DNA of 64,000 bases from Octopus vulgaris (lineage: Eukaryota), in the NCBI GenBank assembly GCA_951406725.2, contig OX597815.1, positions 101,866,001-101,930,000 of the forward strand, written 5' to 3'. The notes beneath the pieces were generated by a model. That model worked only from the letters and a program-made list of their open reading frames with translations. It did not search any database and was not told where the DNA came from. Below are positions 11,228 through 14,869 of this stretch, in pieces. Positions within the stretch are counted from its first letter, which is position 1, and each line of letters begins with the position of its first letter. The position numbers and the translations under genes were made by a program.

Positions 11228-12408
11228 ACGACTAGATATAATCACTTAAGCATAGATAATGCCAAATCTTGCAGACATAATCAGGAATAATGTGGTGCAG
11301 ACTTACAAAGAAAGATATGTGCACGACAACATGTATTTATAAGACTCACAGAGGTAGATGAAAATATACAGCTAAATATAAATAGACATGCAAATGTAAG
11401 ATATGTAATTGTTTATTTAAGCCTATAAATAATTACATGTAAATATTATATGAATGCTGCGTCAGTCTCAGTAATGAATATTTTTGTGGCTTTGTGAACA
11501 GAACTACAAACTCATTGAATTAAAGTTGCAAGTGTTTGAATACGTCACAGATGCTCGTATCTTAATGTAATGATCAGACATCTTACACCGACACAGTGTG
11601 TAACAAGGACGGGCACTTTAAAATATAGGTACAATCCAGTTTGTATATTTATCCCCACTTAAACGTGGATAAATATTAGCTCTCGGTATTAATTTTTTTT
11701 TTATTACCTCTCAGTATAAATAGCTTGTAACAAAATCCAGTTTGTATCAATGTAAATGCTTTAGACAAGTGATCAAGAGAAACTCTATGTAGTTGCTCGA
11801 GATGCTGGAGAGGTTGCTAAGTCTTCCTCAAATTACACCCTGTCATTTTAGCAAAATGAAAAATTTGGTAAAATAGTTCTAGATAGATTATGGTTAAAAG
11901 AAAAAGAGGAAATAATGAACAGCCGCTGGAACGCCTTTTATCGTGGATCAGGAATGAAACAAGAATGTAATTGTAGAAGAGTTATAGTATAAGACACCTT
12001 CTCAAGTTGTTGAACAATGAAATCAAACCCGAGAGATTATGATTTTGAAACGATTCGCTAAACCATTTGGCCAATGTAGATATACACTAGTAGATGTGCG
12101 AAAATAAATAAAAACAAACTGCGAAGCAACATTTGTATAGATATAGGTCGATGCTGATTCAACAGAGCCATAATCAAAAGCGTTCTGGTATAGATCATTC
12201 AATCACTTTTGTTTTCCGAACATTGGGTATCTGTTAGAAAATCTTATCTCCCGTAATTCAAAATATCCCGGATCTAGTTAGTTTCATTCACAAAATGAGC
12301 CTCCTTTAATTTTGCTCAGATTGCTTTCAATTTTGGTGTATCGATGCAACTCTGAATTTTGATTACGATCAGCCAATTTACTTTATCTCATAAATTAAAG
12401 AATCTGAT

Positions 12409-12585
12409 ACAGATCTATATTTAAGAGATGAGAAATTATGTACATTATTTACATTTGACGGATCTTTCTCTTCATCTTATTTGTTGTTAACACAACCTTT
12501 CGGCCGATATTCCCTCCAGCCTTCAAGTGTCTTGGAGAAATTTTTCGAACCTGGATTCTCATTCCTAAGGTATTTTTCGATGTTG
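12409..12585 (-). mobile_element. Penelope-like terminal repeat with degenerate hammerhead and a 32-nt tail
   Basis: Minus strand reads CAACATCGAAAAATACC...ACTTGAAGGCTG..CGGCCGAAAGGTTGTGTT...GTAAATAATGTA plus tail. An inverted copy lies at 14219-14362. Confidence 0.65.
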
Positions 12586-12706
12586 TTGTTGTTGTTGTTG
12601 TTGTTGTTGTTGTTGTTGTTATTATTATTATTATTATTATTATTATTATTATTATTATTATTATTATTATTATTATTATTATTATTATTATTATTATTAT
12701 TATTTT

Positions 12707-14218
12707 ATGTTTGACTTTTACTTTACATTTGTACAAGATGGCTCCAAGTCTCACCCAGAGACCTCAAGAGACAAGTTGAAAGTTCATGTTGGTGTTATGC
12801 CGAGGGTGCCATATATTTGGTTTTGTACATAGTGTTGTTCTAGAGAATGTTTAAGAAACCATAAGAAAATTATGTTTGTTTTATAACTTGAGATTACATA
12901 GAAAGTATTTTGCATAAGATAAGAGCAGTTCCCATGAGCACTATCTTTTGAATTTCTGCCATTTTGGGGTTTCCTGGTATCTGAGCTAGGTAGCATTAAG
13001 CCCCTTTTGCTGTCATTCCCAGGGCACCTATGACAACAGGCATTGTTTTAGTCTTCAGGTTCCACATTTTGCTAATTTCTATTTCAAGATCGTTATACTT
13101 GCTCAGTTTTTGGTATTACTTAACAGATAGGTTTATATCGATTGGGACTGTTATATCAATGAGGAGGCATGATTTTTGTCTGAAGTCTTTCAATATGATG
13201 TCTGGCCTATTCGCATCTATCTTTCTTTCAGTCTGAATGGTGAAGTTCCAGAGGAGTGAGATGTGATCATTTTCAAGCACTAGAGGTGATTTGCGTTCCC
13301 ACCAGTTTTTATCATGGGGCAAGTCCAGGCTTTCGCAAATTACCCAGTGAATATATTGTGCAGTTCTATCATGCCTGTTGAGATACTCTGTAGGCGCAAA
13401 AAGACTGCACTTAGAAACAACATGATCAATAGTTTCATTTTGTTGTTGACATACACGACATATTGGGCTACTGCCGTTCTTTAATATATTGGCCTGGTAG
13501 TTTCTTGTTGGTAGGCATTGATCGTGAGCTGCTATGATAAACCCTTCTGTTTCAGATTTTAAGTCAGAGGCCATTAGCCATTGATGGGTCAGGACTTTGT
13601 CAACATCGGCATTATTCGCTCTCTGGGTATTTGCCATTGAGAAGTTTTTCTTGCCATTTATCAGTCAGAATATCTAAGGCAGCAGTTTTTTGCACGGGTT
13701 TTCATGCGCTTAGCTTTTTCTGCGTTTGTTTCTCGTATGTCTAATTCCGGAATTTGTTGTATTCTGAATTCACTTAAATATTCCTTTGCCTGTTTTGTTA
13801 CTAAGTATGATGCTTTCTTGTTTTCATGTTCTGAGACAAGTTTTAACATCCAGTCCTCAGAGTTTTTCAGGTAGGTGTCTAGGCCAATTGTGGCAATCTT
13901 CATTGTTAATGCCAGTTGTAAAAGTCCACGGCTTCCCTCTTTTCTTGGCAGATAAAGTCGTTCTATATCTATCTTAGGGTGGTGCATTCTATGCATTGTC
14001 AACAGTTTTCGTATTTTTCTGTCAAGATTACATATTTCAGTAATTGACCAGTTAACGATTTTGAAACTGTACGTCACGACTTGTATGGCTAAAGCATTGA
14101 TCGCTTTGATTCTGTTTCTCGCATTTCGCTCTGTCTTGAGTATTGCTCTTACTCTGCGATAACATTCTCTCCCGATCCTTTCCTTCATCACTGGATGCCT
14201 TATTCTGTCCCCTTCATC
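12707..14218 (-). mobile_element. 5'-truncated Dong/R4-clade non-LTR retrotransposon (RT thumb, CCHC zinc knuckle, RLE endonuclease), frameshifted
   Basis: Motifs LDRKIRKLLTMHRMHHPK..ERLYLPRKEGSRGL; CRVC..ETIDHVVSKC; RHDR; NRPDIILKD..LLIDITVP; MPVVIGALG. The 3' end abuts (TAA)n(CAA)n at 12581-12706. Confidence 0.92.
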
Positions 14219-14362
14219 CAACATCGAAAAATACCCTAGGAATGAGAGCCTAGGTTCGAAATTTCCCCCAAGACACCTTATGAAGGCTGGACGATATATC
14301 AGCCGACAGGTTGTGTTAACAAACAAGATGAGGATAAATATCCGTCAAATGTAAATAATGTA
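14219..14362 (+). mobile_element. Inverted copy of the Penelope-like terminal repeat
   Basis: CAACATCGAAAAATACC...CCTTATGAAGGCTG..CAGCCGACAGGTTGTGTT...GTAAATAATGTA; reverse complement of 12441-12585. Confidence 0.7.
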
Positions 14363-14869
14363 AAGAATCTGATGTTATTTGGAATTAAAATTGGAAAATT
14401 GGGTAATTTTAGCCAATCAACAAACAGCGTGGTAGGTAATTTTAGCCAATCAACAAACAGCGTGGCATTAGCAGCTTGTTACCATGACCACCACTCGTGT
14501 TTGTGTCGCACGTTGTTCTGAGTTGATTCTTCACACCACGAGATTCTATTGACCCGCGTGTTTTGTTTTAACTTTTCTATGTTAGTATACAACATACTTT
14601 TCTGTGCTTCTGTGTGTTAGTGTTTTTACATATTTTTCATTTCGTATATTTTTGGGACAAATTCTTTGTTAACCAGAGTTATTCTTAACGTAATTTACAA
14701 ATCCAAGCATGAAAACGTTACTCCACTTTGGAGTTTTGGAGACAGATGCCCCCTTTTCACACACACACACACACACACACACACACACACACACACACAC
14801 ACACACACACACACACACACACACACATACACACACACAAACACACACAACGATATCTAACACGGGGAA

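What the first reader, a model, noticed from the sequence alone, without database searches (positions are those of the whole stretch)
12396..14373. Dong LINE fragment apparently mobilised as cargo inside a Penelope-type hammerhead element
Seen, left to right: TAAAGAATCTGAT (12396-12408); 32-nt tail; 145-bp repeat on minus (12441-12585); (TTG)n(TTA)n; 1.5-kb Dong fragment on minus; the same 145-bp repeat on plus (14219-14362); TAAAGAATCTGAT again (14361-14373). The two repeat copies together reconstruct a hammerhead-like CT(G)ATGA-A-GGCTG-loop-CAGCC-GAAA. The truncated Dong 5' end joins the inverted repeat with no (TAA)n. Established: Dong targets (TAA)n, and Penelope insertions often show an inverted upstream terminal repeat lacking the 30-40-nt tail. 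Inference: Dong first entered the (TAA)n of a non-autonomous Penelope-like element, and the chimeric RNA was then retrotransposed by Penelope machinery as one unit. That would be cross-class hitch-hiking that frees Dong sequence from its target site.
Basis: partly seen in the sequence, partly recalled or inferred. Interest (0 to 1): 0.8.

Follow-up and report, generated by a model that had tools for sequence, protein, structure and literature searches.

The report
LINE fragment inside Penelope fold-back insertion
A dead 1.5-kb piece of one jumping gene (a Dong-like LINE) sits between the two mirror-image ends of an old insertion bearing the hallmarks of a different kind (Penelope-like), and it was likely copied there as a passenger, though only at about even odds against having landed there later.

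Summary
The anatomy is real: a 13-bp direct repeat, a 32-nt one-sided tail, two inverted 144/145-nt arms, (CAA)13(TAA)30 and a 5'-truncated restriction-like-endonuclease (RLE) LINE of R4/Dong type that abuts the inverted arm with no TAA. Other copies of the arm family carry an intact minimal hammerhead; both arms here are broken. Paralogues of the host repeat align up to the first base of the 13-mer and stop, so it is target sequence. The outer ends fit one Penelope-like (PLE) insertion primed from both strands. Whether the LINE rode along is unresolved. For: no 5' TAA, LINE decay (about 4-8%) no younger than the arms (about 5% each), and one non-consensus base shared by both arms. Against: short two-armed PLE stubs are common, Dong homes to TAA, 5' target loss is known for related LINEs, and the arms hold more indels. 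No second chimera, donor locus or Dong-less allele was seen; no genome was available. pLTR-driven cargo transport is published (rotifer); my searches listed no paper with a LINE as cargo. Odds: co-retrotransposed 0.47, template switch 0.09, later nesting 0.40. One old scar; modest interest.

The parts
12396..12408 (+). left copy of 13-bp target-site duplication
   Evidence: exact repeat, only two copies in the window; chance 5e-6
12409..12440 (-). 32-nt 'tail', present on this arm only
   Evidence: sequence; the loose-end consensus behind the arm end in run X2 begins with the same 7 letters as this tail (table 7)
12441..12585 (-). long-side pseudo-LTR (pLTR) arm with decayed minimal hammerhead (core shortened by 3 nt, base after GAAA changed to G)
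12581..12708 (-). (TAA)30(CAA)13 microsatellite between the LINE 3' end and the arm
12709..12896 (-). LINE 3' UTR
   Evidence: follows the ORF end at 12897; high summed contig depth in three runs
12897..14218 (-). 5'-truncated ORF of an R4/Dong-type LINE: RT thumb, CCHC finger, PD..D-type restriction-like endonuclease; 2 frameshifts (near 13689 and 13622) and 2 premature stops
14219..14362 (+). short inverted pLTR arm, tail-less, starting 4 nt into the (CAA)n; hammerhead core broken (CTTATGA, GACA, base after it G)
14361..14373 (+). right copy of target-site duplication, overlapping the arm end by 2 nt
   Evidence: paralogous host-repeat contigs align leftward to 14361 and no further than 14360
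14374..14750 (.). host repeat into which the unit inserted (multi-copy; carries a 33-nt tandem duplication at 14402-14465)
   Evidence: summed depth 8e3-1e5 in run X2 and joints skipping 34-45 nt

Best explanation
The 2-kb unit has the ends of a Penelope-like insertion, and it was likely made in one integration event in which the Penelope-type reverse transcriptase copied a read-through RNA that already held the Dong-like LINE 3' end upstream of a pLTR. Shown: the geometry (target duplication, tail on one arm, tail-less inverted arm, LINE abutting that arm). Inferred steps: (1) at a donor locus a Dong copy and a pLTR+tail lay in tandem across (TAA)n(CAA)n; which arrived first cannot be told; (2) a transcript ran from the LINE through the repeats into the pLTR; (3) a PLE protein acting in trans nicked both strands of an AT-rich host repeat 13 nt apart; one nick primed cDNA at the tail end and ran through tail, pLTR, repeats and 1.5 kb of LINE, the other primed at the tail-less start and stopped 4 nt into the (CAA)n; (4) the two cDNA ends were joined head to head at 14218/14219; (5) the copy has since decayed by roughly 5-6%.
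For: Outer ends: TSD exact and unique; 6 of 14 joint cells in the right-flank repeat reach exactly 14361, 12 of 14 reach 14360-14364, none passes 14360; two RT start sites one tail apart and extension of both strands are shown in vitro for a lizard PLE (PMC11167929). Cargo: no TAA at the LINE 5' junction although TAA is the Dong target (PMC3812793, PMC7998251); LINE decay estimated at 4-8%, central 6%, not younger than the arms (14 of 140 columns differ, about 5% per arm, 95% interval 2.8-8.1%); both arms have G where the family loose-end consensus has C after GAAA, as expected if both were copied from one atypical donor; pLTRs alone can carry unrelated DNA with a TSD and PLEs capture 0.9-1.5 kb upstream of the 3' pLTR (PMC3846280).
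Against: No second chimera, no donor and no orthologous allele seen: no genome held, collection scans empty, no listed contig piece spans the 14218/14219 junction (24 of about 71,100 pieces shown). Indel events are denser in the arms (5 in 288 nt) than in the LINE ORF (2-3 in 1322 nt; p 0.003-0.006), though they lie in slippage-prone runs. The age intervals overlap widely. The shared base could mark a subfamily, gene conversion or chance (only 51 positions were comparable). The rotifer cargo case has two direct pLTRs plus an inverted one; here there is no upstream direct pLTR.
Confidence: 0.47

Rival explanations
1. Ordinary nesting: a short two-armed PLE stub with (TAA)n(CAA)n at its centre inserted first; a Dong-like LINE later homed to that TAA (or to the fold-back centre), and the upstream TAA was lost at 5' joining or by a later deletion.
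For: Dong targets (TAA)n; LINE and arm families are both very abundant in three related runs; opposite-strand hammerhead pairs 100-700 bp apart are a described PLE product (PMC4209133); 5' junctions of the related R2 elements often delete target sequence (PMC3774820); arms hold more indels than the LINE; an unchecked earlier report from another genome found TAA before only 11 of 16 Dong starts (e1-7884193).
Against: Needs every upstream TAA removed while the arm stays whole to 4 nt into the repeats; LINE substitution load is not lower than the arms'; the one other TAA-embedded insert in the window keeps TAA on both sides (17419-17897; n=1, different element).
Confidence: 0.4
2. Template switch at integration: the PLE reverse transcriptase copied a plain pLTR RNA, reached (UAA)n and jumped to the (UAA)n end of a separate Dong RNA; no chimeric donor ever existed.
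For: Same geometry as the best explanation; template jumps aided by (AAT)n/(AAC)n are proposed for rotifer PLEs (PMC3846280 Discussion).
Against: No direct evidence; needs two RNAs at one site, whereas read-through needs one.
Confidence: 0.09
3. The LINE's own machinery made the insertion (3' transduction of a downstream pLTR), or the 13-mer is coincidental and the arms are independent insertions.
For: A LINE reading through its TAA end would carry the pLTR and tail; target duplications of this length in R4 elements are recalled, not found in print here.
Against: Does not explain a second, inverted, tail-less copy of the 3' end; the target is not TAA; the 13-mer is exact at both outer ends and is host-repeat sequence.
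Confidence: 0.04

Closest known systems
Endonuclease-bearing Penelope-like element insertions with inverted pLTR and one-sided tail (PMC8557442; PMC3846280; mechanism PMC11167929)
   Same: Inverted 5' arm, 30-40-nt tail on one end only, short TSD, minimal hammerhead in the repeat.
   Different: No PLE ORF between the arms; the body is a LINE fragment; no autonomous partner could be linked to this repeat.
pLTR-mediated in-trans mobilisation of cargo in Adineta vaga (NRPS gene with 8-bp TSD; Pen1 spacers; PMC3846280)
   Same: Unrelated sequence between pLTRs inside one TSD.
   Different: There the empty allele was found and the cargo lies between two direct pLTRs plus an inverted one; here one direct and one inverted arm, cargo is another retroelement, and only half an empty site is seen.
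Dong / R4-clade RLE LINEs targeting (TAA)n (PMC3812793, PMC7998251); Dong-R4 is abundant and recently active in Octopus vulgaris (PMC13282606)
   Same: RT thumb, CCHC finger, PD..D endonuclease, 3' end on (TAA)n, 5' truncation.
   Different: No (TAA)n at the 5' junction; not placed on a tree with named Dong sequences.
Minimal type I hammerheads of metazoan PLEs (PMC4209133) and non-LTR retrozymes (bioRxiv 10.64898/2026.07.22.740005)
   Same: 5-bp helix I, unpaired base before a 6-bp helix II, palindromic minimal helix III in the family consensus.
   Different: Not in tandem, so not a retrozyme; both copies here have broken cores.

Membership tests
Penelope-like element insertion (EN+ type) | terminal repeat carrying a minimal hammerhead | tested here: met
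   family loose-end consensus shows CTGATGA, helix II, GAAACGTT and a pairing helix I (table 7); helix II folds in both arms; decayed at this locus; Rfam silent
Penelope-like element insertion (EN+ type) | inverted 5' copy of the terminal repeat | tested here: met
Penelope-like element insertion (EN+ type) | 30-40-nt tail on one end only | tested here: met
   32 nt at 12409-12440, absent on the right; family continues with the same first letters
Penelope-like element insertion (EN+ type) | short target-site duplication | tested here: met
   13 bp (11 if the 2-nt overlap is given to the arm)
Penelope-like element insertion (EN+ type) | repeat flanks a telomerase-like RT + GIY-YIG ORF in autonomous copies | not testable with these tools
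   no such ORF at the locus; no genome; scans with an arm motif empty
Penelope-like element insertion (EN+ type) | ribozyme self-cleavage | not testable with these tools
   bench assay; local copies predicted inactive from core changes
R4/Dong-type LINE (sequence) | single ORF with RT, CCHC finger and C-terminal restriction-like endonuclease | tested here: met
   motifs present in the fragment and its full-length homologues; homologue P0002 matches solved R2 proteins at E 8e-30 over residues 225-974
R4/Dong-type LINE (sequence) | 3' end on (TAA)n | tested here: met
R4/Dong-type LINE (sequence) | phylogenetic placement with named Dong/R4 elements; N-terminal Myb-like domain | not testable with these tools
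   homologues carry no such names; N-terminus missing at the locus
Standard Dong insertion into (TAA)n | (TAA)n on the 5' side as well | tested here: not met
   junction 14218/14219 has none; not filed as a standard Dong insertion
pLTR-mobilised cargo (as in Adineta vaga) | empty site with the TSD once | tested here: inconclusive
   paralogues carry the 13-mer joined to the right flank and stop there; their run-on into the left flank was not shown
pLTR-mobilised cargo (as in Adineta vaga) | donor locus or sister copies showing cargo and pLTR moved together | not testable with these tools
Non-LTR retrozyme | tandem units each with a complete hammerhead | tested here: not met
   two inverted, broken copies, no tandem array

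The most novel reading that the evidence does not exclude
Dong read-through transcripts routinely feed the Penelope machinery in this lineage: LINE copies sitting upstream of the very abundant pLTR across shared (TAA)n/(CAA)n repeats are re-mobilised as chimeras, giving a recurrent class of LINE fragments, occasionally full-length copies, outside their TAA target and framed by Penelope ends.
Probability: 0.2. Interest if true: 0.55.

Novelty: new variant of a known kind. Interest (0 to 1): 0.3.

Why it matters
If the LINE rode along, the locus is a clean natural record that a single downstream pLTR suffices to have any upstream RNA, even another retroelement's, inserted by two-sided Penelope priming, and that a site-specific LINE can leak out of its target that way. 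A genome-wide count would turn this into a measure of how often PLEs act in trans, and would flag mis-annotated chimeric repeats. If the LINE nested later, the locus is ordinary repeat debris. Either way the cargo is a dead fragment with no evident function.

Tried and rejected
No whole genome is held, so the genome-wide test was impossible. Exact-pattern scans with a LINE 3' UTR motif (metagenomes) and an arm motif (viral, metagenomes, prokaryote genomes) gave 0 matches; protein-led locus searches gave 0 confirmed loci. The window holds no other copy of arm, LINE or flanks; the whole-window inverted-repeat scan was swamped by microsatellites. Rfam found no hammerhead at gathering or E<=10. 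Pfam gave only a sub-threshold zf-RVT hit on the fragment. The laid stretch (12710-14750) left out the microsatellite, left arm and left flank, so LINE-to-long-arm joints in other copies and the left half of the empty site were not examined; most rows were hidden (175 letter rows, 245 joints, 2844 loose ends). Junction microhomology could not be scored because the LINE family's DNA upstream of 14218 was not shown. Earlier-findings look-ups by sequence, place and three word sets were blank. Rejected: chance TSD; two independent arm insertions around a prior LINE; retrozyme; a live ribozyme at this locus.

Full report
Observation. The 13-mer TAAAGAATCTGAT occurs at 12396 and 14361 and nowhere else in the window on either strand; the chance of an exact 13-mer direct repeat within 5 nt of both outer ends is about 5e-6, or 7e-5 for 11 nt. 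The arms 12441-12585(-) and 14219-14362(+) agree at 126 of 149 columns, with 14 substitutions and 9 gap columns. A 32-nt extension follows the left arm only. Between the left arm and the LINE lie (TTG)13 and (TTA)30. The right arm is 144 nt and shares its last two bases with the 13-mer. The repeat content of the window recalls an octopus genome; this is recalled and was not tested, and no genome is held.

The LINE. The stretch 12709-14218(-) aligns in three frames to unnamed single-ORF proteins at 50-62% identity (27 hits of 510 candidates; 24 of 142; tblastn). It holds the RT thumb, a CCHC finger and a PD..D endonuclease motif; a full-length homologue matches solved R2 proteins (5 sequences, best E 8e-30). 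It begins just after the YLG motif, present at that place in 14 of the 14 closest homologues printed, and ends on (TAA)n. That is R4/Dong architecture and target (PMC7998251 and PMC3812793, passages), but no named Dong sequence was compared. It has 2 frameshifts and 2 premature stops. In three contig runs of organisms B, E and C the family is very abundant and depth falls towards its 5' side (run X2: about 1.1e6 at the 3' end, 2-4e5 near 14100-14200; summed depth is no copy number).

The arms. Rfam finds no hammerhead. The loose-end consensus of other copies supplies one: CTGATGA, an unpaired A, helix II, GAAACGTT, and a 5-bp helix I, the shape described for minimal PLE hammerheads (PMC4209133, first quarter of the text). 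A 6-bp helix II folds in both local arms (whole-arm z -2.4 right, -0.4 left). Both local cores are broken: the right reads CTTATGA and GACA, the left has lost 3 nt of the core, and both have G in place of the C after GAAA. Behind the arm end the family continues with the first letters of the left tail (run X2). No autonomous ORF could be tied to the repeat.

The target. The right flank is itself a repeat. Among the 15 joints shown (245 hidden), 7 start at 14385-14400; taking the reported shorter side as the left one, 6 of their 14 cells reach exactly 14361, 12 of 14 reach 14360-14364, and none goes left of 14360. Paralogues therefore carry the 13-mer joined to the right flank and do not continue into the arm. 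Their run-on into the left flank was not shown, as the laid stretch was 12710-14750. This is half of an empty-site test.

How the ends were made. Inverted 5' arm, one-sided 30-40-nt tail and TSD are the described PLE signature (PMC8557442, passages; PMC3846280, passages and Discussion). A lizard PLE protein nicks and extends both strands and starts cDNA at two sites one tail apart (PMC11167929, first half of the text). Read on this locus, a top-strand nick primed at the tail end and a bottom-strand nick at the tail-less start, 13 nt apart; the bottom-strand nick would lie just before ATT, the motif preferred by that protein, which is weak evidence in AT-rich DNA. This step is inferred but well supported.

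Did the LINE ride along? For: the LINE abuts the short arm with no TAA. Its decay, estimated from residues invariant in other homologues (6 of the 50 fetched, chosen because they span both segments; more distant P0013/P0014 left out), is 17-21% mismatch against 2-10% for left-out homologues, giving about 4-8% nucleotide change, central 6% (assumes intact homologues and a recalled non-synonymous fraction of 0.77). The arms differ at 14 of 140 columns, about 5% per arm (interval 2.8-8.1%), so the LINE is not visibly younger. Places differing from other copies over the whole laid stretch are 149-171 of 2041, an upper guide that includes family polymorphism. Both arms share a non-consensus base, as if copied from one atypical donor; only 51 positions could be compared, and each arm differs from the consensus at 5 of them. 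Cargo transport by pLTRs is published: an NRPS gene with an 8-bp TSD and a found empty allele, other non-coding captures, and 0.9-1.5-kb spacers upstream of the 3' pLTR (PMC3846280; reviewed in PMC6431247, passages).

Against: indel events number 5 in 288 nt of arm against 2-3 in 1322 nt of LINE ORF (p 0.003-0.006), which would fit older arms, though the arm indels sit in A-, C-, TGA- and AAC-runs. Short opposite-strand hammerhead pairs are a common PLE product (unchecked earlier reports), Dong homes to TAA, R2 5' junctions often delete target bases (PMC3774820, passages), and an unchecked report from another genome saw TAA before only 11 of 16 Dong starts. If the host is an octopus, both families have been active for long and LINEs peaked near 6.5% divergence (PMC13282606, first third and passages; its supplement was listed, not read; PMC8967140, passages), which weakens the age argument. 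No second chimera, donor or Dong-less allele was seen: none of the 24 contig pieces shown spans the junction and all collection scans were empty. The one other TAA-embedded insert in the window keeps TAA on both sides, a single case of a different element.

Weighing. I put read-through co-retrotransposition at 0.47, a template switch at the shared (UAA)n at 0.09, later nesting with 5' loss at 0.40 and the rest at 0.04; these are judgements, not computed values.

Known and new. It works like a PLE insertion with cargo; it is not a standard Dong insertion (5' TAA test not met) and not a retrozyme (bioRxiv 10.64898/2026.07.22.740005, first fifth read). Searches listed no paper describing a LINE carried as PLE cargo, and searches none on 5' junctions of truncated Dong copies; the library lacks most subscription papers and Repbase. 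The finding is at most a new variant of a known kind, on one old locus with a dead cargo. Interest 0.3; 0.55 if a genome-wide class of such chimeras is shown.

Noticed in passing
window 17419-17897: A 479-bp non-coding segment flanked by (TTA)17 and (TTA)19; looks like a TAA-targeted short element with both flanks kept; no protein match to the LINE homologues.
   Followed up: partly
window 17955-18530 and 6270-6342: A 70-86-nt direct repeat (18082-18151 / 18447-18530, 85-87% alike) with a third copy at 6270-6342 on the minus strand, next to the TAA tract; possibly ends of another repeat family.
   Followed up: partly
window 14402-14465: Perfect 33-nt tandem duplication in the host repeat; joints in three runs skip 34-45 nt here, so most paralogues seem to lack it.
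   Followed up: partly
window 44831-45550 (-): Partial, decayed match to eukaryotic SSU rRNA (Rfam RF01960, 85.9 bits), a probable rRNA pseudogene fragment.
   Followed up: no
window 15031-15452, with copies near 948-1024, 1190-1234, 1538-1631, 53239-53315: Two tandem, diverged copies of a SINE-like repeat about 230 nt apart, with further copies in the window.
   Followed up: no
window 23479-25095, 58488-59773, 60338-61925 (+): Three fragments of one RT + zf-RVT LINE family (L1/Tx1-like by recall), the first with a 538-aa open frame.
   Followed up: no
window 27873-28744 and 49197-49744: Near-perfect tandem duplications (413-nt period at 99%, 241-nt at 97%) bounded by microsatellites; recent duplications or assembly artefacts.
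   Followed up: no
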